Source: a virus
Taxonomy: Duplodnaviria; Caudoviricetes
IMG/VR virus record: IMGVR_UViG_3300022178_000338
Span: 1-28,306 of that record
Strand: one strand, 5' to 3'
DNA: 28,306 bases
Shown here: one piece after another, positions 4,250 to 23,615 of the stretch
Layout: every line of letters starts with the position of its first letter
Numbering within the stretch: the first letter of the stretch is position 1
The notes under the pieces: generated by a model
What the model was told of the DNA's origin: nothing
Database searches by the model: none
The model's input: the letters and a program-made list of their open reading frames with translations, nothing else
Made by a program: the position numbers and the translations under genes

Positions 4250-6397
4250 TTAGCCTCTTAGTCCATCGGGTTTAGCATCAAGTCTTGTATCACCTAACTG
4301 CCACTGAGTTCCCAAAGTATTTGATGTTATTTTAAAACTAATTTGTCTACCCCTAGCTCTAAGAAAAACTTCATTAGTATACTGAGAAATAGTTCCTGCT
4401 GTGGTAACTACATTACGTGTTAGTGGAACCCCACCTACATCTGATACAGAGGTAGCTGCACCAGGAAACTTAGTAATGGCAACAGACATATCAACTTCTG
4501 GAGTAACAGCAGGATCAGAAGCGGTAAAATCAACGTCTGGTATTATCCGTTTAGTCAGCATATAAAACTCACCAGCATCTATATCAACAAAAGCAGACTC
4601 AATGTAAGCAGTAATAGGAAGAGACGTAGCTCCTAGTGGCTGCCCATCATCTGTTCCTCGTTCGTGGTTATATATATAACCATTAGCAGTCGCCAAAGGA
4701 AATTCATTAATTCCTGCATCAAGCCATGTTGTTCTATTAAGCTGTCCGTAATACCAAATTTTATCTCTATAATTATAAATAATATAACGATTAGCACTTG
4801 AGTTACCACTTGAACAGTAAAACCATACTACTTCATTAAATTCTTTATTTGACCCTGCATAAACGAGGCTTGATTGAACTCTATTAATATCTTCAAATAC
4901 ATAACGTAGTAGTGGACAAGGGAGTACATTGACTCGACCATCGTATTGGAAAAAGTTATCTGTACCCATCCAATAGGTAATGTTGTTTACCTCAACAACA
5001 GCGTTAGGCCCCATAATACTAGTAGAACTAGAAAGTAGCTGTAGTTTAAATACCTCGGCAGTACCTAAAAATTGCAGGGTATTTAGAGTACTTTCTGTCC
5101 ACACTAGCGTTTCCTGTCTTGTGTTAAGACCCGTAATAATTTTAGAACCTTCTTGTATTCTTAAAAATCCTGCAGAGTTAGCTATCTCAGGTTTCCAATA
5201 TTCGGGTTTAGGCCCTATATCTGCATTAACATCCGCCCAGCGAATAAGTAAAGGATCAAAGATACCCTGACTATAGTCATTGTAAACATAAGTTCCAACT
5301 GTAGTAGCATTTGATGCAGGAGCACTAAGCATTGTATAAGTAAATGTAGTTCCGCTTGTAACAGTTATTTGATAATCACCAAGATAATCTTTGGGTTGTT
5401 GTCCTGACATCGTCACGTAGTCACCCGTCTCTAAATTATGACTACTAGCTGTAGTTACCGTAGCTACTCTGTTTCCTGCAACGCGAGTAATACTATTAAT
5501 TGATATGCCTGCAGTATCAACTTGACTATATTCACTACAACCAAGAGCAAGTAAATGACCTGAAGGAGCAAAAAAGGTTTGTTCTGTTTTAGTTGGTACA
5601 GCAATTGCACCCGAAATACTACTTAATAAAACAGCTCTAGTAGTAAACCCAGCGCTAAAATCCCAATAAAAAATAGGACCCTCGTCATTTAGATTAAAAA
5701 TAAGATCATCATTAAAGTTGTCCATAAAGACAAGGCGAACACTAATAAGGGCGGGTGTAGCAGAACCCGAACCCCAAGTACCACGACCCCAAGTGCTAGT
5801 GCCCCAACCATAACCACCCACTGAAGTATCGGGACCAATGTTAATTTCAAATGCCGCGGTAATTCCTGTACCCCCTCCAGTTGCTGCAGAAGTTGCAGTG
5901 CCCGCGGTTGAGATACTAAAGCTATTTGCATTAATATAAGTTATTTCAAAGTTTTGATTTAGTTGGGCGGCGGTAACACCACCAACAGCAGCGGCGCCAC
6001 TAAAAGTAACAAAGTCACCATTTTGTGCTCCGTGTCCTGTAATAGCTACAGTAACAACACCAGAACCCGAAGTAGTAGTAAAACAATTATTTGTAGCAGT
6101 AGAAGTAAAAGTAGCACGAATAGGAGTAATGTCGTAAAGGGCTGTACCTGCTCGAATATATATTTTTTGACTTGTAGCTAGTCCTGTAAGTTCAATACCA
6201 GTAAAAGTAGAATAAACAAAAATTTTAACCGCTTCTCCTACATATCGGTCAAAAGTAGCTACCGTCCAGCCACCTATTTTTTCTGCGTAACCCTCTCTAA
6301 AACGAATTTTGTCTCCATCATACCAACCGCCCATAGAAGCTAAGTTACTTCGGTCTCGATTAATACCGGGGAGAAACTTTAATTTTGTTAGTGGCAT
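4250..6397 (-). CDS. Tail nozzle / tail tubular protein B (P22 gp10-like DNA stabilisation beta-propeller) with two inserted small beta domains
   Basis: 715 aa; MPLxKLKFxPGINR start, LIRWAD, YWMGTDNFFQYDG, EVVWFY, RARGRQ, C-terminal DGLRG; position before the ejection genes. Confidence 0.7.
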   Translation of the reverse strand: MPLTKLKFLPGINRDRSNLASMGGWYDGDKIRFREGYAEKIGGWTVATFDRYVGEAVKIFVYSTFTGIELTGLATSQKIYIRAGTALYDITPIRATFTSTATNNCFTTTSGSGVVTVAITGHGAQNGDFVTFSGAAAVGGVTAAQLNQNFEITYINANSFSISTAGTATSAATGGGTGITAAFEINIGPDTSVGGYGWGTSTWGRGTWGSGSATPALISVRLVFMDNFNDDLIFNLNDEGPIFYWDFSAGFTTRAVLLSSISGAIAVPTKTEQTFFAPSGHLLALGCSEYSQVDTAGISINSITRVAGNRVATVTTASSHNLETGDYVTMSGQQPKDYLGDYQITVTSGTTFTYTMLSAPASNATTVGTYVYNDYSQGIFDPLLIRWADVNADIGPKPEYWKPEIANSAGFLRIQEGSKIITGLNTRQETLVWTESTLNTLQFLGTAEVFKLQLLSSSTSIMGPNAVVEVNNITYWMGTDNFFQYDGRVNVLPCPLLRYVFEDINRVQSSLVYAGSNKEFNEVVWFYCSSGNSSANRYIIYNYRDKIWYYGQLNRTTWLDAGINEFPLATANGYIYNHERGTDDGQPLGATSLPITAYIESAFVDIDAGEFYMLTKRIIPDVDFTASDPAVTPEVDMSVAITKFPGAATSVSDVGGVPLTRNVVTTAGTISQYTNEVFLRARGRQISFKITSNTLGTQWQLGDTRLDAKPDGLRG

Positions 6398-6423
6398 ATT
6401 TTTATCTCATCACGTCTTACGGT

Positions 6424-6452
6424 ATTCTAACACCTACTTGCCCCAATGACGA
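6424..6452 (-). promoter_or_regulatory. Candidate extended -10 promoter upstream of the nozzle gene
   Basis: Minus strand TCGTCA-17 nt-TAGAAT with TGn extension (TGTTAGAAT). Confidence 0.4.
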
Positions 6453-6916
6453 CTACCGAACCAAAAACCTATAATACTAGCCACAATAGCCATTTCTTCA
6501 TCAGAGAATACAATATCCATTGCGGTTTGAAATTCTACACCAGACTTAATAGCCCAAATCATACCAGCAATATCAACAAAAAGAAGAAGAGAAATAAACA
6601 CATAAGTGATAATAGGACGCACAGAGGATCTAAGATTAATAACCCACTGGCTCGCGTTTTCAGCCATTCCCGTATCGTGTTTATATAAGTCTGTGCGTTC
6701 TTGGGCATAAGTTTGCATATTAACTTGATCGGTTTTAGATTCTTCAATTTTCTCTTGAGAGGCGAATCCTTTTGCAGCCATTGCCAAAGAGCGTTCTGTA
6801 GCCAGTCTAGCCATTTCTTGTTCATGCTTTTGATTTCCTTTTTCCTGAAAAAACTTTAGCACATTAGGCAGTCCTGATGTAGCAAAACCTAATATACCAG
6901 ATAACATAGATAACAT
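6434..6916 (-). CDS. Putative 3-TM holin (GTA-release holin-like)
   Basis: 160 aa; N-terminal amphipathic helix, coiled region, WVINLRSSVRPIITY followed by a TM, and C-terminal IIGFWFGSR; strong GGAGG RBS. Confidence 0.7.
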   Translation of the reverse strand: MLSMLSGILGFATSGLPNVLKFFQEKGNQKHEQEMARLATERSLAMAAKGFASQEKIEESKTDQVNMQTYAQERTDLYKHDTGMAENASQWVINLRSSVRPIITYVFISLLLFVDIAGMIWAIKSGVEFQTAMDIVFSDEEMAIVASIIGFWFGSRHWGK

Positions 6917-6927
6917 AATTTATCCTC

Positions 6928-7263
6928 CTAATAGTTTAACGGGTTTTCCAAAGCTTTAGTAATTTTCTTATCTATTCGTTCTTCTAGCTTATACATATCA
7001 GCAGATAGCTTTTCTATAATCTTAACTTGTTGTTCCATTGTCTGACGAATAGTTAAATTCTCTGCTGCAAACACTGCTACTTTTTTATCTACATCACTTA
7101 AATCTGGCGCAACATAACTTTGTATTTGTTCTTTCATATCTGTATAGTCTTTATAGAACTCAAAGCCACCCCACAAACCACCTATAATACTACCAATTAA
7201 AGGTATGATTAATAGTAGTTTACTACCACCTACTTTGACTCCCGCGTATTCTATCTCTGCCAT
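6928..7263 (-). CDS. Single-TM coiled-coil membrane protein
   Basis: 111 aa; LLLIIPLIGSIIGGLWGGF TM followed by a heptad-like helical region. Confidence 0.7.
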   Translation of the reverse strand: MAEIEYAGVKVGGSKLLLIIPLIGSIIGGLWGGFEFYKDYTDMKEQIQSYVAPDLSDVDKKVAVFAAENLTIRQTMEQQVKIIEKLSADMYKLEERIDKKITKALENPLNY

Positions 7264-8963
7264 TGTGTATTCCTTTGTGGATATTGTAAGTCTTCTAATT
7301 TTATAAAGTTCTTATCGTTTACAAACCATCTAGCAAAAGCATTATCAACATTCTCTTGCGGTGGATAAAAACTTGCTAAGTCTTTCATCTCTTGTTCAGC
7401 ATAATTAAAGTCTGGTACAAAAGATATAAGAGATAGTAATTGTTGCTGTACTACCACTTGTTGTTCTAAAGTAACTGCACTTTCTACTTTTTTAGTTAAA
7501 GCTACTGCTCTTTTTGATACAAGGGCTTTAAGTTTATCATTTTTTGTAGAGACTTGTTTTTTCTCAACCTTCTTCGGAGCTTGTTTGTTAGCAACTGTCG
7601 CCTCAATCGGTTGCTCCTCGGCTCTATCTTCTTGTTCATCAACAGGCTCTTCCCTTTCCTCAACAATTTCTAGTTCCTCTGGCTCTTCTCTCTCCTCTCT
7701 TGGTTCTTCTCTTTCCTCTGACTCTTGCTCTGCCTCAACAATCTCCTCGATAGGTTCTTCTCCCACCTCTGGTTCAAGCACTTCCATCTGTTCAGGTTCA
7801 CTAGGCTGTGGCTCAACAACGGCAATCTCCCTTTCTAGTTCTTGTTGCATCTCTACAGGCGCTTCAATAGGCTCTGGTTCTATCTGTATTATTTCTGGTT
7901 CAAATACCTGTGGCTCTTCGTATGTTGGCATTGTAAAAGAAGGTATACCTTCAATCTCATAACCACTAGCACTTGTAAAATCTGTCGTTAAATCTGGTTG
8001 CTCTAGTACTTCTTCAATTAATACTACTTCTGGTTCTGGCTCCGGTTCTACATACCCTGCACAAGTAGTGTCATACTGAGGGTCATACATACACTGTTGT
8101 TCTAGGTATGCTTCTTCATATCCGTTGCAATCTCTACTGTAGGTTGCATCTGTTGTACACTGGTCAAGAAAATAGGCTTCTTCGTACCCACTACAACCAC
8201 TATCGTATAATGTGTTTTGATTACACTCCGTGATATATAGCTGTTGTGCATACGCCTCTGCATATCCAGAGCATTGAGGGTCGTATAAAGCGTTTGCGGC
8301 GCAAAGAGTATTGAGAACATTAATACTATTCTGCTCATTACCATATGACTCTGGTACTCCCTGATACCCCGAAGGATAATAATAGTTTTGAATACCTTCA
8401 TACGAACCTGTATTTAAATCTCCTGATTCTCCTATAGCTATTGCATGGTTTTGTATGTTTACAGCAGTATAATCTACTGTGTACGAACCATCTTGCTTAA
8501 TCTGTAACTCAAAAGAGTTTAATCTACTAGCATTATAATATTCTGCTAGGTTTTTCCACCTGTAAGTCTGTTGTGAGGTATCACCTTCTGTAAATAACCC
8601 GCTGTTTTCTGCACCTAAATCTATTAAGTCTGTCCATAATGGGGCTATAGCATACCCATATCTACTAATATTCTGTTCGTTTTCAGCCATTGTTTGTAAA
8701 TCACGACCATTACAGCACCAGTGGCTTTCTACTTGACTATCTGTTGGATTACGAAAACCAACTACACCATTCGTAAACATATAGGAGGTTTCAAACTCCT
8801 CACCATAAAAAGGAAATACAAACTGTAAAGGTACTTCTGCATAGTGGTCATCATGTACAGTAGTATGATTAGGGCTAGTTAGCTTAACCTCATTACAGTA
8901 AGAATAGGAGCATAGCGAGAGTAACAGTACCGCTAGCAATCCAACCTTGACGCTCTCTGACAT
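7251..8963 (-). CDS. Exported protein: signal peptide, NIDO-like domain, 4x C-x9-C-x-G-Y repeats, Glu/Pro-rich stalk, helical C-terminus
   Basis: 570 aa; VGLLAVLLLSLCSYSYC signal-like N-terminus; VPLQFVFPFYG...TNGVVGF...IAPLWTDL resembles nidogen N-terminal (NIDO) motifs. The exact start codon is uncertain. Confidence 0.65.
   Translation of the reverse strand: MSESVKVGLLAVLLLSLCSYSYCNEVKLTSPNHTTVHDDHYAEVPLQFVFPFYGEEFETSYMFTNGVVGFRNPTDSQVESHWCCNGRDLQTMAENEQNISRYGYAIAPLWTDLIDLGAENSGLFTEGDTSQQTYRWKNLAEYYNASRLNSFELQIKQDGSYTVDYTAVNIQNHAIAIGESGDLNTGSYEGIQNYYYPSGYQGVPESYGNEQNSINVLNTLCAANALYDPQCSGYAEAYAQQLYITECNQNTLYDSGCSGYEEAYFLDQCTTDATYSRDCNGYEEAYLEQQCMYDPQYDTTCAGYVEPEPEPEVVLIEEVLEQPDLTTDFTSASGYEIEGIPSFTMPTYEEPQVFEPEIIQIEPEPIEAPVEMQQELEREIAVVEPQPSEPEQMEVLEPEVGEEPIEEIVEAEQESEEREEPREEREEPEELEIVEEREEPVDEQEDRAEEQPIEATVANKQAPKKVEKKQVSTKNDKLKALVSKRAVALTKKVESAVTLEQQVVVQQQLLSLISFVPDFNYAEQEMKDLASFYPPQENVDNAFARWFVNDKNFIKLEDLQYPQRNTQWQR
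8052..8303 (-). repeat. Four Cys-paired peptide repeats (22-26 aa period)
   Basis: CAANALYDPQCSGY, CNQNTLYDSGCSGY, CTTDATYSRDCNGY, CMYDPQYDTTCAGY; the first three are followed by xEAY. Confidence 0.9.
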
Positions 8964-9468
8964 CTTGTTTTGTTTCCAATATTATGGGTTCTGGTATTAA
9001 CTCAGGGTTTGCTTTCCATTTCTTAGCTGCTGCTGTACCTATCTCACCTAAGAACGGACAAGGAGTACCTGCCATACCCATTGCATCATAGACCCTTCTG
9101 TCTTGACATAAAACTGATACTGCTGCTACCTTCATACCCATATCGTATAAGGTCTTAGAAATCTTTAATCGTTCACAGTTCTCATCTCGTACTGTTTCAC
9201 CTGTAGACACACCTAAGATTTGTGTTTGTATTGCCCCACTGACCCCAGATGTACATATATCAGAAGAAGAACCACCCATAGAGGGGCTAATAGCAGAGGG
9301 AGGGGGCGATATAACTACTGTTCTACCCCTAGACTTAACTTCTGAATCAGAGTTAGTAGTGGTGTTTACTTCTGTTGCTGCATTGGCTTCACTAGGAATC
9401 ATTACACAAAGAAATAAGCCTAAAGCATATATAAAAACAATACCCCAAAAGATGTTATAGTCTTTCAT
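8893..9468 (-). CDS. Cys-containing membrane/exported protein with N-terminal signal/TM and C-terminal TM anchor
   Basis: 191 aa; IFWGIVFIYALGLFLCVMI...ANA signal-like; SPPPSAISPS, DICTSGVSG, DENCERLK, LCQD, GTPCP; C-terminal TVTLAMLLFLL. Confidence 0.75.
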   Translation of the reverse strand: MKDYNIFWGIVFIYALGLFLCVMIPSEANAATEVNTTTNSDSEVKSRGRTVVISPPPSAISPSMGGSSSDICTSGVSGAIQTQILGVSTGETVRDENCERLKISKTLYDMGMKVAAVSVLCQDRRVYDAMGMAGTPCPFLGEIGTAAAKKWKANPELIPEPIILETKQDVRERQGWIASGTVTLAMLLFLL

Positions 9469-15625: not shown

Positions 15626-15976
15626 CTAAACCATTCTACCTTTGGTCCTACCGCGTATAGCTATACCATCACGTTTACACTTTGATGTAACCTTACCACC
15701 AGCTTTCATATAACCCATTTTGTTACGAACTTTTGTAGGTAACTTTTTTAATCCGGGATTAGCAGGTGATTTTAGTGCTCCACCAGCTTTCATATTCCTT
15801 ATTTCCTTTACTTTCTTCGGTTCATATTTTTCTACTTTTTTGCGGCGTTCTGCCTTTTTTTCTTTTGCATCTTTTACTGCTTCACGTGCCATATCATCTG
15901 GGTACATTTCTTTAAGTTCTTTTGGAGTCGGTTCTCTAAACGTAAATGTAGGTTTATTTGATTTTTTCTTTGGCAT
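15626..15976 (-). CDS. Lys-rich small protein with 2x MKAGG (116 aa; start revised to MPKKK)
   Basis: AAGGAG at 15989-15984 upstream of the ATG at 15976; the track start overlaps the adaptor gene. Ends KRDGIAIRGRTKGRMV. Confidence 0.8.
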   Translation of the reverse strand: MPKKKSNKPTFTFREPTPKELKEMYPDDMAREAVKDAKEKKAERRKKVEKYEPKKVKEIRNMKAGGALKSPANPGLKKLPTKVRNKMGYMKAGGKVTSKCKRDGIAIRGRTKGRMV

Positions 15977-15987
15977 TTTAATTCTCC

Positions 15988-16668
15988 TTATACGTATGAT
16001 TGTCTGGGTGCTAAAGATAATGTAGCTTTTTCTCTGTCTTCTGTAGAAGCAAGTAGCCACTGCTCTTCGTATTCTTGTTTTAAAAATTGTATCTTAGGTC
16101 CTGCTTCTGGAATCTTTAGTGATAGATAATAAGCAAGTCCAGCAACCATACAAGGTAAAAACCTAAAGGGTATATGCTGGGTATTAACGCCCGTGCCTGC
16201 ATCGTCAATTCTTTTTAAAAACCAATAAACAAAAGTATAACTTCCGTCATTTGGGATAGGCCATAAAGTTATTTTAGGAACCGCTGCCTGTCTATCTATA
16301 TAAACTTGTATGGGTCTGCCCGTGTCATTTTTACTAGGTATAGAAGCATAGGTAGGATTAGATATTCTAGATATAGTTATATCTGCTTGTGTTGTTCCCG
16401 TCCCTGTTCTAATAACCTGACTGATAAGATCAATAGTAGTTGTAGGTAGATCATATGTTGCAGTGTCTTGAACAAGAGGAATAGTAGCTTGTTCTACAGT
16501 CCAAAGATTAATACCCCGGTTAGCCCATTCAATAGTAAGTAAATTCAAACTGCGAGTAGCCGTTCTTAAATCATAGCCCGTTCTAAGTTCTGCACCGCAA
16601 CGCTCAAACGCTTCTTCTACTAGCAAGTTAAGATCAAGATTAAAGTTGTGCGTATTTGTCGTTGTCAT
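15988..16668 (-). CDS. Head-tail adaptor / tail tubular protein A-like (P22 gp4 / T7 gp11 analogue)
   Basis: 226 aa; LVEEAFERCG...RSLNLLTIEWANRGINLW...GRPIQVYIDR...WPIP...PFRFLPCMVAGLAYYLS. Confidence 0.7.
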   Translation of the reverse strand: MTTTNTHNFNLDLNLLVEEAFERCGAELRTGYDLRTATRSLNLLTIEWANRGINLWTVEQATIPLVQDTATYDLPTTTIDLISQVIRTGTGTTQADITISRISNPTYASIPSKNDTGRPIQVYIDRQAAVPKITLWPIPNDGSYTFVYWFLKRIDDAGTGVNTQHIPFRFLPCMVAGLAYYLSLKIPEAGPKIQFLKQEYEEQWLLASTEDREKATLSLAPRQSYV

Positions 16669-16949
16669 TATTTCTTACCTTTTCTTTTAAGTGCCGCTAC
16701 TCTACGAGGTTTACCCGCTGGTTGCCCAAGTCTTTTCTTTTGAGCTATACGCGATCTCTTTTGTGCAGGTGTCATCTCCCCAGATGTTTTTGGAGTTTTA
16801 GCCGAAACACGTTTAGAAGGTCTGCAGTAAGGCGTACCACGAGTCTCACCTTTTTTTCTACCACAAGCTTTACCTGTTCTTACGTCTTTCCAATCTTCTT
16901 TAAACCAGCGTTTTAAAGATGCGCCTTTTTTGGTTTTACGAACAGCCAT
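16668..16949 (-). CDS. Small basic protein (LKRWFKEDW...YCRPSKRVS; DUF5872-like from recall)
   Basis: 93 aa, very K/R-rich, TAATG-coupled at both ends. Confidence 0.75.
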   Translation of the reverse strand: MAVRKTKKGASLKRWFKEDWKDVRTGKACGRKKGETRGTPYCRPSKRVSAKTPKTSGEMTPAQKRSRIAQKKRLGQPAGKPRRVAALKRKGKK

Positions 16950-17356
16950 TATTTACCTGCTTTCTTTTTCCTGCATTTAGCAATAGCCCCAGAAGCATAA
17001 GCGCTAGGAAAGACTCTATAACTAGCCTTTACCTTTTTATAGCAAGCATCTTTTACACTCCCGCCCTTTTTTAGCTTAACAGATTCAAGAGTCTTAGCTT
17101 GTTTGGCGTGTGACTTAGAAGCTTTCTTTAAACCCTTTATGACCTTGTTAACTTTAGCGACTGCGCCGCCAGCTTTCATTTTAGTAGGTTTAGTGTGTCC
17201 ATAGCCTTTTTTCTTTAGCTCTAGATGTTTAGCCATAGTCGGAGCTTTAACTGCTTTGCCCGTCTTCTTATCATACATCATATGAGACTTAAAAACCTTA
17301 CCACCGGCTTTCATCTTTTTAGGGTTTATAATTCCCATTCCACGAGAGGCTCTCAT
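16949..17356 (-). CDS. Lys-rich protein with 2x MKAGG and LKKGG and a C-terminal CYKKVK...PSAYASG module (135 aa; start revised to MRASRGMG)
   Basis: ATG at 17356 lies 1 nt after the previous TGA; the track start overlaps the upstream gene. Confidence 0.8.
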   Translation of the reverse strand: MRASRGMGIINPKKMKAGGKVFKSHMMYDKKTGKAVKAPTMAKHLELKKKGYGHTKPTKMKAGGAVAKVNKVIKGLKKASKSHAKQAKTLESVKLKKGGSVKDACYKKVKASYRVFPSAYASGAIAKCRKKKAGK

Positions 17357-17357
17357 A

Positions 17358-17864
17358 TCACACCATTTTACCGCGAGTACGCCCACGTTTAGCTATACCA
17401 TCTGCGCGTTTAGATGCAGAAGAGGCTTTACTGTTTTTCTTAATATTTTTAACAACGCGCTTCTTTTCATCTTTTAGATTGCGTTTACCTTTTTTAGTAT
17501 AAGCTTTTTCAGCGTCTACTCGACCTAATTCTTCGAGTTCATTTTTTACGCTTCCGCCTTTTTTCATGCCGCCCATTGCAGCTTGTCTACGCCGCGCGTC
17601 CATAGCCATAGCCATTCTTGGGTCCATAGCGCGAGTACCGGCTCTATCAGCCATAGCCATACCGCCACCCATCATTTTCTTGACTTTGCCGCCTTTCATC
17701 ATTTTCTTGACTTTACCACCCATCATCATTTTCTTATTATACATCTTGCTCTCCTTAGAATATTCTTTACCCACAGACTGTGGAATGTTTACCTTTTTAG
17801 CAAACTTAGGGTTATTAGCCACCGCCTGCATTAGTTTAAGTTGCTTGGCGCTTTTAGCTGGCAT
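17358..17864 (-). CDS. Lys/Met-rich protein with tandem KKMMxGG repeats
   Basis: 168 aa; MPAKSAKQ...NPKFAKKV N-terminus, four motif copies, C-terminal RADGIAKRGRTRGKMV. Confidence 0.8.
   Translation of the reverse strand: MPAKSAKQLKLMQAVANNPKFAKKVNIPQSVGKEYSKESKMYNKKMMMGGKVKKMMKGGKVKKMMGGGMAMADRAGTRAMDPRMAMAMDARRRQAAMGGMKKGGSVKNELEELGRVDAEKAYTKKGKRNLKDEKKRVVKNIKKNSKASSASKRADGIAKRGRTRGKMV
17661..17735. repeat. 27-nt tandem repeat (about 3 copies) encoding KKMMxGG(KV)
   Basis: catcattttctt recurs at 17670, 17697 and 17724. Confidence 0.9.
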
Positions 17865-18085
17865 TACTTACCAGCCCACCAATATATAACCGTTGTAATT
17901 GCACTACCGATAGCACCGCAAAACCACATAGCCATTCTTCTACCACCCTTTATTTCAGATAACATAGTTTCAATATTATCAACAGCAATTTTTAGGTGGC
18001 GGATATCTTCTTTCACTTCGTCCATATCTTTTTGCATATGGTCAATAGCTACTGAATGTTCTCCTAGTTCACGTTCGGTACTCAT
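17864..18085 (-). CDS. Coiled-coil plus C-terminal TM protein (XhlA-like / holin-like), 73 aa, start revised to MSTERE
   Basis: Heptad region followed by KGGRRMAMWFCGAIGSAITTVIYWW; TAATG coupling at 18085. Confidence 0.65.
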   Translation of the reverse strand: MSTERELGEHSVAIDHMQKDMDEVKEDIRHLKIAVDNIETMLSEIKGGRRMAMWFCGAIGSAITTVIYWWAGK

Positions 18086-18384
18086 TAGCATTTCCACCTT
18101 TTTAATGATGCTGCTTTTCTAGTAGGACGACCTTTAGAATCTTTCATAGGGCCTTTCATACCAGACATTCGTGCACAAAAAGATTTACGGCGAGCCGCAT
18201 CCTTTTTCGTTTTGGGATTGGGTGCAGGAGCCTTGAGATTAGCTCCAGTTTTTCGATTATATTTGGCGCGACCTTTCGCAGTAAGACCCGCTCCTTTAGA
18301 AACGGGGAGCTTTTCGCCCCTTCCTACTGCTAAAGATACGCCTTTTTTTCTAGCTTTAGGTTTAGCTTTCTTTGCCGTTGCCAT
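18085..18384 (-). CDS. Small basic protein (GLTAKGR...RRKSFCARMSG...SLKRWKC; DUF6321-like from recall)
   Basis: 99 aa, K/R/A-rich. Confidence 0.75.
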   Translation of the reverse strand: MATAKKAKPKARKKGVSLAVGRGEKLPVSKGAGLTAKGRAKYNRKTGANLKAPAPNPKTKKDAARRKSFCARMSGMKGPMKDSKGRPTRKAASLKRWKC

Positions 18385-21661: not shown

Positions 21662-22691
21662 TTGCGTTCTCCGTTTTTATCATTTCTCGTGCATATTGTT
21701 CCGGTGTCAACCTAAACTTTTTAGCCAAAGCTAATTGAGTCTTGGTTAGTCGTACTTTTTTAGGCGCGGTACTGCGCGTAGCCGGTGCAACAACATTCGA
21801 AGGTTTGCGTTGGGCAGGTTTAACCTCTTCCAACGAATTATCCCCAAAGTTCTCAGGGAATCGCTTTTGCATAGTATCATTGATACTACGGTAATATTCA
21901 TCAGAAGTGGGGTTTATACCGCTTTTGACAAGTTTTTCATGTACACCCAACGCCAACGCAGTCATCTCATCGTCTTTACCAAACCAAGGATTTGCATCTT
22001 GCCAAGCTTTTGCTTTAGCGTCTGGAGCTTGAGCATTTGGTTGTGGGGTATTTTGTTGAAAATCTACACTATTCTCAGGCTGTTGTACAGCTTTAAATTG
22101 TGGTTTTCTATCAACACTAGCAGATAATTTATATTGTGCCTCAGTCATTCTAGATTGAGCCTCAATAACCTTATCCGTATCTCCAACATCATAAGCCTCG
22201 CGATAGTCTCGTTTAGCTAGTGCCAGATCTTTTTCATGTGCTTCTCTAATTGCTTTTAAATAGTCTTCTTCACCACTACTGAGAGTAGTTTTCAAACCTT
22301 TATTTTCTTCTGCTACCTGACGCGCAAAACGAATAGCTTCTTCTCTTTCTCTATCAGCTTGTTCTTTAGCACGCCTTTCATCGTGATAAACTTTTTTAAG
22401 CTGCGCCATACGTTGTTTAACGCGATCAGAATAATCTTCTAAATTATCATTCTCTAGTTCGTCAACAATCTTTTGCGGTAAAGGTTCCTTCCCTTGATCT
22501 TCAAGAGGTGTATCATCTTCTTCCTCTATTTCAATTTCAGGTTCAGCTGCACGTGGTTTCTCTTGTACAACTCGCTCGACATCTGCGGTAGATTTTTCGG
22601 GTTTAGAAGCTTTGCTTTCTTCTGTACTAACTTCTACTTCTTCGCCCTCCATCTCTAATTCTTCCGGTATTTCATTTACTATCTTTGTCAT
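21654..22691 (-). CDS. Capsid scaffolding protein (start probably MTKIV)
   Basis: Acidic disordered N-terminus, long coiled coil, AKAWQDANPWFG, and C-terminal LTKTQLALAKKFRLTPEQYA helix-turn-helix; GGAG RBS before the ATG at 22691. Confidence 0.8.
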   Translation of the reverse strand: MTKIVNEIPEELEMEGEEVEVSTEESKASKPEKSTADVERVVQEKPRAAEPEIEIEEEDDTPLEDQGKEPLPQKIVDELENDNLEDYSDRVKQRMAQLKKVYHDERRAKEQADREREEAIRFARQVAEENKGLKTTLSSGEEDYLKAIREAHEKDLALAKRDYREAYDVGDTDKVIEAQSRMTEAQYKLSASVDRKPQFKAVQQPENSVDFQQNTPQPNAQAPDAKAKAWQDANPWFGKDDEMTALALGVHEKLVKSGINPTSDEYYRSINDTMQKRFPENFGDNSLEEVKPAQRKPSNVVAPATRSTAPKKVRLTKTQLALAKKFRLTPEQYAREMIKTENANG

Positions 22692-23160
22692 CTTGCTCTC
22701 CATTTATTGCACTGATAAATAAATCAGTGTTTCGATTGCCTTTAGATAAATTCCAATACTCAGGAACTACCTGAAGGTTTGTGAGACAATGTCTGCCCCC
22801 TTTGCTTAGTGGTACGATATGATCTACGTGCCACTTGAACTCAAACATCTCTTCGCGTAATTTAGCTAAAGAGTACATTTCTTTTAATATCCATTTATCA
22901 TCAGATGTATGAATATCATTTACTTTCTTTTGCGTTGCCTTTCTTGTTGCTTTATAAGCATTTACTTTTTCTGGATTAGCTTTTCTCCAAATACTTACAC
23001 GTATTCGTTCTTGTTCAGTATGTTTCTGGTAATAGATTTTATGGCTCTCTAATACCTTTTCTGAATTAGCCTCTTTCCAAGACTTTCTCCAGTTATATGC
23101 TTTTTCTCGATTCGCTTTATAGTAAGCTCTTCGTTGTTCCGCGCTTTTCCAGCCAGACAA
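22672..23160 (-). CDS. Free-standing HNH endonuclease
   Basis: WHVDHIVPLSKGGRHCLTNLQVVPEYWNLSKGN; basic repetitive N-terminus (xxANxEK); TTG start. Confidence 0.85.
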   Translation of the reverse strand: MSGWKSAEQRRAYYKANREKAYNWRKSWKEANSEKVLESHKIYYQKHTEQERIRVSIWRKANPEKVNAYKATRKATQKKVNDIHTSDDKWILKEMYSLAKLREEMFEFKWHVDHIVPLSKGGRHCLTNLQVVPEYWNLSKGNRNTDLFISAINGEQDDKDSK

Positions 23161-23162
23161 AA

Positions 23163-23615
23163 TTATGCTCTTGCATATCCACGAGGGTCACTAACCACAG
23201 CTTCTACAGTATCGTCATTAATAATACGAAACTCTTTACCGTGGATCTTTATGCGTGTTCCTGAATAAGCACGGGTAATTACAAAGTCACCTTCTTTACA
23301 CCAAGGACCAGAAGGAAATCTATCTTTATCTTTGTAAGCTAAATCACCCAAGGACATAACAAATAGAACAACCGTAGAATGTTCTTCAATTTTTTTAGCT
23401 CCATCAGCTTTTAGTATTCCACTTTCATAAGCGTCCTCAACTTCGGGCACAGCGCATAAAATACGGTAGCCCTTAACTTCAGGTAGTTGTTTAGCTAAGT
23501 TGTCCATTGCTTCTTCTTTTGAAACAGCTGCATCTTTTTTTGCTTTAGCTTTAGATTTAATTGGAGCGCCTCCAGGAGACACTAAAGTTTTTTCGCTCGT
23601 TGCTATTTTATTCAT
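23163..23615 (-). CDS. groES: Phage co-chaperonin GroES (Cpn10)
   Basis: GYRIL...ESGIL...G...KEGDFV...YSGTRIKIHGKEFRIINDDTVEAVV matches the Cpn10 pattern; carries an N-terminal extension. Confidence 0.85.
   Translation of the reverse strand: MNKIATSEKTLVSPGGAPIKSKAKAKKDAAVSKEEAMDNLAKQLPEVKGYRILCAVPEVEDAYESGILKADGAKKIEEHSTVVLFVMSLGDLAYKDKDRFPSGPWCKEGDFVITRAYSGTRIKIHGKEFRIINDDTVEAVVSDPRGYARA

What the first reader, a model, noticed from the sequence alone, without database searches (positions are those of the whole stretch)
6434..9468. Four-gene membrane/export cassette inside the tail module
Seen: between a tail fibre and the nozzle lie four consecutive genes that all have signal or TM segments. 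They are 191 aa (signal, Cys residues, C-terminal TM), 570 aa (signal, NIDO-like domain, Cys repeats, acidic stalk), 111 aa (TM plus coiled coil) and a 160-aa 3-TM holin-like protein. The first three overlap each other. Established: virion proteins assemble in the cytoplasm and lack signal peptides, and paired Cys residues point to the periplasm or surface. Inference: a phage-encoded envelope apparatus, either a non-canonical spanin/lysis system, a superinfection-exclusion or receptor-masking complex, or a surface adhesin altering the infected cell. This is a strong candidate for an undescribed system.
Basis: partly seen in the sequence, partly recalled or inferred. Interest (0 to 1): 0.8.

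Follow-up and report, generated by a model that had tools for sequence, protein, structure and literature searches.

The report
Mobile phage surface-display envelope trio
A marine phage carries three overlapping genes, shared by many unrelated aquatic phages and matching no described system, whose products are predicted to enter the host's envelope and likely build an outer-membrane ring that holds a swappable sticky protein on the infected cell; the fourth gene is likely an ordinary holin.

Summary
The four genes and their overlaps are real, but the unit is three genes: A (191 aa), B (570 aa), C (111 aa). Of 55 evaluable loci fetched with A alone, all 55 have B and C and 1 has the 160-aa gene, a likely GTA-type holin. 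The trio sits among very different neighbours, also in five cultured pelagiphages, so it is a mobile cassette, not a tail part.

A has a fixed-length, Cys-bracketed hairpin with a membrane-strand pattern and a predicted self-associating helical core (0.47 against control 0.00). Its bacterial relatives carry collagen-like N-termini and often an OmpA wall-binding domain. B has a swappable head (NIDO-like here), an acidic stalk and a conserved C-terminal domain. C is a membrane-anchored coiled coil ending in NPL.

Best reading (45%): an outer-membrane ring displays B, tethered by C. A spanin substitute is less likely: 14 of 45 carriers also have an Rz1-like gene, and two pelagiphages have neither. 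No function was tested, and the barrel was not seen in any model. This scan had already found the cassette in other phages; my literature searches found no paper on it.

The parts
8893..9468 (-). Gene A, 191 aa: predicted signal peptide, short Thr/Asn/Ser stretch, PPPSA linker, Cys72-Cys98 hairpin, helical core with Cys121/Cys137, Gly/Leu-rich C-terminal tail. PHROG 20531 (unknown function); no Pfam or NCBIfam hit.
9175..9255 (-). Cys-bracketed hairpin of A (25 residues between the Cys in 374 of 375 family members that show the 4-Cys pattern); one face Gly/Ser/Ala, the other hydrophobic; candidate outer-membrane beta-hairpin (inferred).
   Evidence: not confidently folded
9010..9174 (-). Helical core of A (residues 99-153, pLDDT mostly above 90); predicted to pack head-to-tail with copies of itself.
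   Evidence: no solved fold at Z 5 or more
8893..8963 (-). 71-nt dual-coding overlap: the hydrophobic tail of A and the signal-peptide core of B are read from the same DNA in neighbouring frames (same arrangement in 100 of 123 loci).
7251..8963 (-). Gene B, 570 aa: predicted signal peptide, NIDO-like head, four two-Cys repeats, acidic disordered stalk, conserved C-terminal domain. No Pfam, PHROG or NCBIfam family.
8298..8888 (-). NIDO-like beta-rich head of B (residues 26-222, pLDDT mostly above 90); replaced by other head classes in relatives.
8061..8303 (-). Four two-Cys helix-loop repeats of B (Cys 221/231, 247/257, 269/279, 291/301); copy number varies widely in the family.
7569..8051 (-). 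Acidic, Pro-rich stalk of B (35% Asp+Glu, 13% Pro), pLDDT below 50.
7281..7544 (-). Conserved C-terminal domain of B (about 85 aa; Y521, Y533, D540, R545, Q560, Y561 in 90% or more of 83 rows), the constant part of B; candidate docking domain (inferred).
6928..7263 (-). Gene C, 111 aa: one N-terminal membrane helix (net positive before, negative after, hence N-in predicted), heptad coiled coil, C-terminal NPL motif (92 of 99 family members).
6434..6916 (-). Gene D, 160 aa: likely GTA-type holin (PHROG 6637); a neighbour, not part of the conserved cassette.

Best explanation
Three overlapping phage genes travel as one mobile unit, and their products, predicted to be exported into the host envelope, likely form a surface-display machine: an outer-membrane ring (A) that likely holds a swappable binding protein (B) on the infected cell, likely tethered from the inner membrane by a coiled coil (C). 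Shown: the linkage, the dual-coded overlap, the domain layout, the head swapping, the hairpin pattern, the OmpA-fused bacterial relatives. Predicted by a model: head-to-tail self-association of A's helical core. Inferred: (1) A and B pass through Sec and gain disulfides in the periplasm; (2) several A hairpins close into a beta-barrel in the outer membrane, with the lumen lined by Gly/Ser/Ala so that an extended chain can lie in it; (3) in bacterial relatives that chain leads to the protein's own collagen-like or Asn-rich N-terminus and OmpA holds the wall, whereas in phages the cargo comes in trans as B, whose constant C-terminal domain stays in the periplasm bound to A or to the NPL tip of C while stalk and head face outwards; (4) late expression (it lies in the virion operon here) makes the infected cell stick to particles or neighbouring hosts before lysis, or shields it from other phages. 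The 160-aa gene is likely a separate holin.
For: Unit: B and C beside A in 55 of 55 evaluable loci, in five cultured pelagiphages of podovirus and T4-like type, among unrelated neighbours. Outer-membrane pattern: hairpin length fixed in 374 of 375; positions 3, 5, 7, 14, 16, 18 are Gly/Ser/Ala in 96-100% of 227 distinct hairpins; positions 8, 13, 15 are hydrophobic in 95-99%; charge is at most 4% at positions 1-18; in 34 bacterial hairpins strand 2 runs F-x-L-x-V/I-x-T-x-W. Topology: 9 of 45 bacterial A-domain proteins end in a Pro-rich linker plus an OmpA-type motif (2 of these scanned, both confirmed by NCBIfam), the layout of OmpA itself (own knowledge); their N-termini are collagen-like or Asn/Gln-rich repeats behind a signal peptide. 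Oligomer: four copies of A core score 0.47, best of 3 controls 0.00; the mark was reached by 20 of 30 solved homo-pairs and 1 of 23 single chains (rough here: own alignment, four copies); runs share at least 90% of contacts, pLDDT at least 63; each copy uses two different faces, as a ring would. Cargo: B heads fall into at least three large classes (37, 32 and 27 of 102), length 288-941 aa, only the C-terminal domain is constant; one pelagiphage head is annotated as carbohydrate-binding (CBM_4_9 only E 0.02). In about 25 loci three more exported genes sit between B and C, one resembling fimbrial subunits by language-model features (0.93-0.94). All named hosts among 50,697 phage records are Proteobacteria.
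Against: No model showed the barrel: the hairpin has pLDDT 51-76 in the monomer and no confident contact in the tetramer; covariation gave no clean hairpin register. This copy has Glu at hairpin position 19, on the would-be lipid face (charged in 36% of the family), and the alternation test gives only p about 0.02 with strand limits chosen after looking. A folded, disulfide-bonded B head could not pass a narrow pore, so the export step is unexplained. A's hydrophobic C-terminal tail would most simply anchor it in the inner membrane, and about 70 residues cannot span a periplasm; the tail is absent in pelagiphage copies. No contact among A, B and C was tested. A occurs without B and C in bacteria (0 of 33 loci) and in Ralstonia phage RSP15, so the trio may work differently from the bacterial protein. 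The ligand of NIDO domains is not known to me.
Confidence: 0.45

Rival explanations
1. Wholly periplasmic trans-envelope tether or sensor: A rings sit at a membrane, B's head binds peptidoglycan or another periplasmic ligand (doing in trans what OmpA does in A's bacterial relatives), and C links to the inner membrane. The complex braces the envelope of the phage-filled cell or passes a signal to the holin to time lysis.
For: Disulfide-rich folded heads stay most easily in the periplasm (own knowledge); C length 111-217 aa fits periplasmic distances; a holin-like gene or endolysin directly flanks the cassette in this window and in 4 of 30 loci, and lysozymes lie close in HTVC033P, CRP-207 and CRP-810. 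Earlier scan notes favoured this reading.
Against: Head swapping among unrelated classes and a 288-941 aa length range suit an outward-facing protein better than a binder of a conserved wall; fimbrial-like partner genes; most flanks are not lysis genes (a lower bound).
Confidence: 0.22
2. Non-canonical spanin: C acts as inner spanin and A as a hairpin-tipped outer-membrane partner (with its C-terminal anchor, like a one-piece spanin); together they fuse the two membranes after the wall is cut, B being a regulator.
For: C has the inner-spanin layout; overlapping genes as in Rz/Rz1 (own knowledge); holin next door; no lipoprotein candidate in the window, its closest relative or three cultured carriers, one doubtful one in a fourth (positive control 4 of 5); four A relatives have a lipobox-like N-terminus (L039, L041-L043).
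Against: A has no lipobox here; C hits no Rz family, while true Rz/Rz1 pairs 1-4 kb upstream of the cassette do in six loci; an Rz1-like gene occurs in 14 of 45 carriers, most of them fragments; HTVC010P and HTVC011P infect the same host with neither cassette nor lipoprotein candidate; bacterial relatives fused to OmpA suit anchoring, not lysis; a large variable B is not needed for fusion.
Confidence: 0.18
3. B is released, at lysis or before, as a soluble decoy, glue or virion coat picked up outside the cytoplasm; A and C only hold it until then.
For: Variable binding heads; long flexible stalk; position among late genes.
Against: The constant C-terminal domain and 55-of-55 linkage point to a lasting complex; stand-alone A relatives were not among the gel bands named for JWAlpha and RsoM2USA virions (passages of PMC3915230 and PMC8504454; abundant bands only).
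Confidence: 0.12
4. Ordinary tail components with misread hydrophobic N-termini.
For: Position between two virion genes in this window and its closest relative.
Against: Same trio in podoviruses and T4-like phages beside primase, terminase, capsid or glycosyltransferase genes; tail neighbours in 3 of 30 loci; conserved signal-like N-termini and Cys pairs.
Confidence: 0.03

Closest known systems
Two-component spanins (lambda Rz/Rz1; T4 PseT.3/PseT.2; PHROG 739 and 812) and one-piece spanins (T1 gp11; recalled)
   Same: Late, overlapping envelope genes; an inner-membrane coiled coil (C); a partner with Cys pairs; a holin nearby.
   Different: No lipobox on A here, no Rz-family hit, a third large variable protein, and true spanin pairs beside the cassette in other phages.
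Pelagiphage curli / type VIII secretion cluster (CsgG, CsgF, CsgA/B, FecR; PMC9599517: abstract and part 2 of 3 of Results read)
   Same: A multigene exported cassette moved between pelagiphage podoviruses and myoviruses, proposed to build a surface structure through an outer-membrane ring.
   Different: No CsgG, CsgF or curlin hit for A, B or C; A would give two strands per subunit and its cargo is a folded head on a stalk, not amyloid.
Trimeric autotransporter adhesins and OmpA-type proteins (recalled)
   Same: Signal peptide, repeat-rich N-terminal part, oligomeric membrane anchor with a lumen of small residues; in bacterial relatives a Pro linker and an OmpA wall-binding domain.
   Different: No YadA-anchor hit; a two-strand Cys-bracketed hairpin followed by a helical domain instead of four C-terminal strands; in phages the cargo would come in trans.
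Chaperone-usher pili (Csu/SCPU, CS1)
   Same: The six-gene variant adds a fimbrial-like subunit and a candidate chaperone.
   Different: No usher-sized gene in the cassette, and the window's version lacks these genes.
PHROG 20531 (A, unknown function); PHROG 6637 and Pfam PF11351 GTA_holin_3TM (D)
   Same: A is a member of PHROG 20531 (E 2e-14); D of PHROG 6637 (E 3e-23), whose Mosig member passes the PF11351 cut-off.
   Different: PHROG 20531 has no assigned function; D itself scores below the PF11351 cut-off.

Membership tests
Two-component spanin | Inner-membrane protein with N-terminal helix and periplasmic coiled coil | tested here: met
   C: hydropathy 9-27, charge bias, heptad pattern; architecture only
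Two-component spanin | Outer-membrane lipoprotein partner with a lipobox | tested here: not met
   no lipobox candidate in the window; the scan found 4 of 5 control spanins
Two-component spanin | Sequence match to Rz/Rz1 families | tested here: not met
   A, B and C hit no lysis PHROG or Pfam, whereas control pairs do
Two-component spanin | Complements an Rz/Rz1 mutant | not testable with these tools
   bench test
Curli / type VIII secretion | CsgG pore, CsgF and curlin repeats | tested here: not met
   no Pfam or NCBIfam hit for A, B, C; A's modelled core is all-helical
Trimeric autotransporter | C-terminal four-strand anchor (YadA type) | tested here: not met
   no Pfam hit; two-strand hairpin followed by helices
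Trimeric autotransporter | Oligomeric outer-membrane barrel carrying an N-terminal passenger | tested here: inconclusive
   pattern fits and self-association is predicted, but no barrel was modelled
Chaperone-usher pilus | Pilin, chaperone and usher genes | tested here: not met
   the window has none; in the six-gene variant a pilin-like lead only, no Pfam hit, no usher-sized gene
NIDO domain (PF06119), head of B | Score above the Pfam cut-off | tested here: not met
NIDO domain (PF06119), head of B | Remote homology to NIDO proteins | tested here: met
   head profile hits 3 of 3 bacterial NIDO proteins, reversed controls none
GTA_holin_3TM (PF11351), gene D | Profile match | tested here: inconclusive
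   D 11.1 bits, cut-off 24.8; its Mosig relative (E 2e-23 to D) 25.8 bits
GTA_holin_3TM (PF11351), gene D | Forms lethal membrane holes | not testable with these tools
   bench test

The most novel reading that the evidence does not exclude
A founds an undescribed class of outer-membrane translocator: a ring of small subunits, each giving one disulfide-stapled beta-hairpin, used by proteobacteria to display collagen-like proteins and taken over by thousands of aquatic phages, among them HTVC023P-type SAR11 phages, to put a swappable adhesin or a pilus on the infected cell and so choose where, and beside which new hosts, it bursts.
Probability: 0.3. Interest if true: 0.9.

Novelty: categorically new. 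Interest (0 to 1): 0.68.

Why it matters
The cassette is very common: about 2,700 stored IMG/VR stretches match A (an estimate), 7,923 of 8,000 scored proteins and 1,791 clusters at 50% identity. It has no Pfam or NCBIfam family and no solved relative, and it is present in cultured SAR11 phages, so it can be tested. If it displays an adhesin, many ocean phages would change the stickiness of their hosts before lysis by a route separate from the curli cluster already described, which bears on host finding in dilute water and on particle formation. The A domain would also be a new membrane anchor of proteobacteria. If it works in lysis instead, it would bear on how phages without lipoprotein spanins cross the outer membrane.

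Tried and rejected
Sequence searches of solved structures with profiles of A, B, the B head and two accessory proteins: nothing under E 0.1. Fold searches: A best Z 3.4; B no Foldseek match at E 0.001 or better and best Z 7.0 from scattered helices (whole chain; the head was barely tested); viral library only uncharacterised proteins. These absences do not show a new fold. A against the hairpin-like accessory protein Z: only the signal peptides align, so paralogy is not claimed. Covariation in the hairpin: no clean register. RNA runs: four contig sets were laid; two cover nearly the whole 15 kb and may hold DNA, so they are not used as evidence of expression. WhiB as a marker of actinobacterial phages: 0 of 40 carriers, mostly fragments, weak. 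A-B-C contigs in bins labelled Actinomycetota or archaea were taken to be misbinned phage DNA; not proven. HTVC019P as a third non-carrier control was not fetched. Lysis-gene adjacency: 4 of 30 loci, with a crude ORF pick that included antisense frames. Literature: eight full-text searches showed no paper on this cassette in their listings; only Creative-Commons PMC papers and bioRxiv are held and I read no supplements, so an annotation table or proteome list could mention these genes.
Full report
Setting. The window is a 45%-complete virus record holding the virion operon of a phage whose capsid protein is 65% identical to that of pelagiphage HTVC023P. The host is unknown. All genes run on the minus strand. 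I call the four genes A (8893-9468), B (7251-8963), C (6928-7263) and D (6434-6916).

Observation. Export could only be judged from pattern and conservation. The tail of A and two of the three supposed helices of D fall under my hydropathy cut-off. The head of B is a remote NIDO relative: no Pfam hit, but a head profile hits 3 of 3 bacterial NIDO proteins at 24-39 bits, and reversed controls not at all.

The unit is three genes. One search kept the best 80 of 595 confirmed matches to A, so the sample leans to close relatives. Of 78 loci fetched with A alone (L020-L097), 55 had 3.3 kb or more downstream; all 55 had the C-terminal domain of B and a C gene, 1 had D. Five cultured pelagiphages (HTVC115P, 023P, 202P, 033P and the T4-like Mosig) have the same order. 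Profiles found A in 5 of 5, the B domain in 4 of 5, and C by profile or by NPL ending in all 5. Among more distant loci the profiles lose B and C (14 and 15 of 20 contigs in genome bins). Neighbours vary freely: among 118 flanking ORFs of 30 loci, tail genes appear in 3 loci and endolysin or D-type genes in 4. The hydrophobic tail of A and the signal core of B share DNA in neighbouring frames in 100 of 123 loci, which locks the two genes together. D belongs to PHROG 6637. It scores under the GTA-holin cut-off, its Mosig relative scores over it, and another relative precedes an endolysin. D is therefore a likely holin and a chance neighbour.

Protein A. The family is very large and has only an unnamed PHROG. 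Its helical core folds confidently and has no solved match. Four copies of the core are predicted to bind: score 0.47, best of 3 controls 0.00; 20 of 30 solved homo-pairs and 1 of 23 single chains reached this mark, counts that hold only roughly here; runs agree in at least 90% of contacts, pLDDT at least 63. The confident contacts lie in residues 94-142 and join two different faces, which suits a ring or a filament; the hairpin has none. Of 459 sequences, 375 show the four-Cys pattern and 374 of these have exactly 25 residues in the first loop. One face is Gly/Ser/Ala in 96-100% of 227 distinct loops, three positions of the other face are hydrophobic in 95-99%, and charges are nearly absent over 18 positions. 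From my own knowledge this is the pattern of outer-membrane strands around a narrow lumen. Against it: Glu at position 19 in this copy, p of only about 0.02 in a test whose limits I chose after looking, and no barrel in any model.

Bacterial relatives. The genome scan returned 39 loci of distant A relatives, mostly in Alphaproteobacteria and some on megabase contigs. None of 33 evaluable ones has B or C. The proteins have a signal-like start, collagen-like or Asn/Gln-rich repeats, the A domain, and in 9 of 45 a Pro linker and an OmpA-type domain (two confirmed). Six loci have two such genes in tandem, the second with OmpA. This puts the C-terminal side of the A domain next to the wall and suggests that the N-terminal repeats are a displayed passenger. 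Named hosts of phages with A are all Proteobacteria.

Proteins B and C. B ranges from 288 to 941 aa. Its heads fall into three large clusters and a few singletons, the repeats vary in number, the stalk is disordered, and only the last 85 or so residues are constant. C is an N-in membrane helix with a coiled coil of variable length, and it ends in NPL in 92 of 99 members. In about 25 loci three further exported genes lie between a short B and C, one close to fimbrial subunits by language-model features (a lead only).

Is it a spanin? C looks like an inner spanin, but no gene here hits an Rz family and no lipobox was found. Six loci carry a true Rz/Rz1 pair 1-4 kb upstream of A, and 14 of 45 carriers hold an Rz1-like gene (one family tested). 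In favour of the spanin idea, four cultured podovirus carriers have no convincing lipoprotein. But HTVC010P and HTVC011P, recorded on the same host, have neither lipoprotein candidate nor cassette, so lack of spanins is not tied to the cassette. Two non-carriers are a small control.

Mechanism. I give 45% to surface display through an A ring with C as tether, 22% to a periplasmic tether or lysis-timing sensor, 18% to a non-canonical spanin, 12% to a released decoy or glue and 3% to tail parts. The open steps are how a folded head gets out and where A's tail sits. No contact among A, B and C was tested.

Comparison and novelty. The cassette fails the tested defining features of spanins, curli secretion, trimeric autotransporters and chaperone-usher pili, although it may work like a display system. 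The nearest described parallel is the pelagiphage curli cluster (PMC9599517; abstract and part 2 of 3 of Results read), which uses other proteins. Of PMC8504454 and PMC3915230 I read keyword passages only; stand-alone A relatives are not among the few virion bands they name. Eight searches showed no paper on the cassette; supplements were not read. Earlier notes of this scan describe the same trio in other phages and the bacterial family of A. These are AI notes, not independent support. The parts of them that I could see did not mention the oligomer prediction, the hairpin statistics, the OmpA fusions or the non-carrier control.

Noticed in passing
L059:2457-3729 and about 25 other loci: Six-gene variant: three exported genes (165 aa fimbrial-like, 125 aa candidate chaperone, 135 aa with a Cys-bracketed hairpin and coiled coil) between a short B and C.
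   Followed up: partly
L149, L152, L154, L156, L158, L171 (about 5200-7700): Bacterial tandem pairs of A-domain genes, the first mostly collagen-like, the second fused to OmpA; a possible mixed ring.
   Followed up: partly
L039, L041-L043 (gene A): A relatives with a lipobox-like N-terminus plus the hydrophobic C-terminal tail, the layout of a one-piece spanin.
   Followed up: no
L086:8356-8844 and 28 other loci: A 160-aa PHROG 32327 protein with a C-terminal membrane helix is the commonest neighbour of the cassette (29 of 105 loci); absent from this window.
   Followed up: no
L189-L191 (G001) and the window: No endolysin hit in the window and no lipoprotein candidate in the window or its closest relative (45% and 73% complete); the relative's ORFs were read by eye only for an endolysin.
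   Followed up: partly
L200-L211, L220, L221: Six cultured SAR11 podoviruses have no convincing lipoprotein candidate, so how they cross the outer membrane is open.
   Followed up: partly
window 15626-18384: A run of small Lys-rich genes (DUF5872, DUF6321, MKKGG-like repeats) between the capsid and adaptor genes, and a 77-aa XhlA-like membrane protein at 17864-18097 that may be a second holin.
   Followed up: no
window 23163-23615 and 22672-23160: Phage GroES co-chaperonin next to the portal gene, followed by an HNH endonuclease.
   Followed up: no
L218 (Mosig), minus strand, start near 2886: A 164-aa lipoprotein candidate with a glycine-zipper-like stretch in the T4-like pelagiphage.
   Followed up: no
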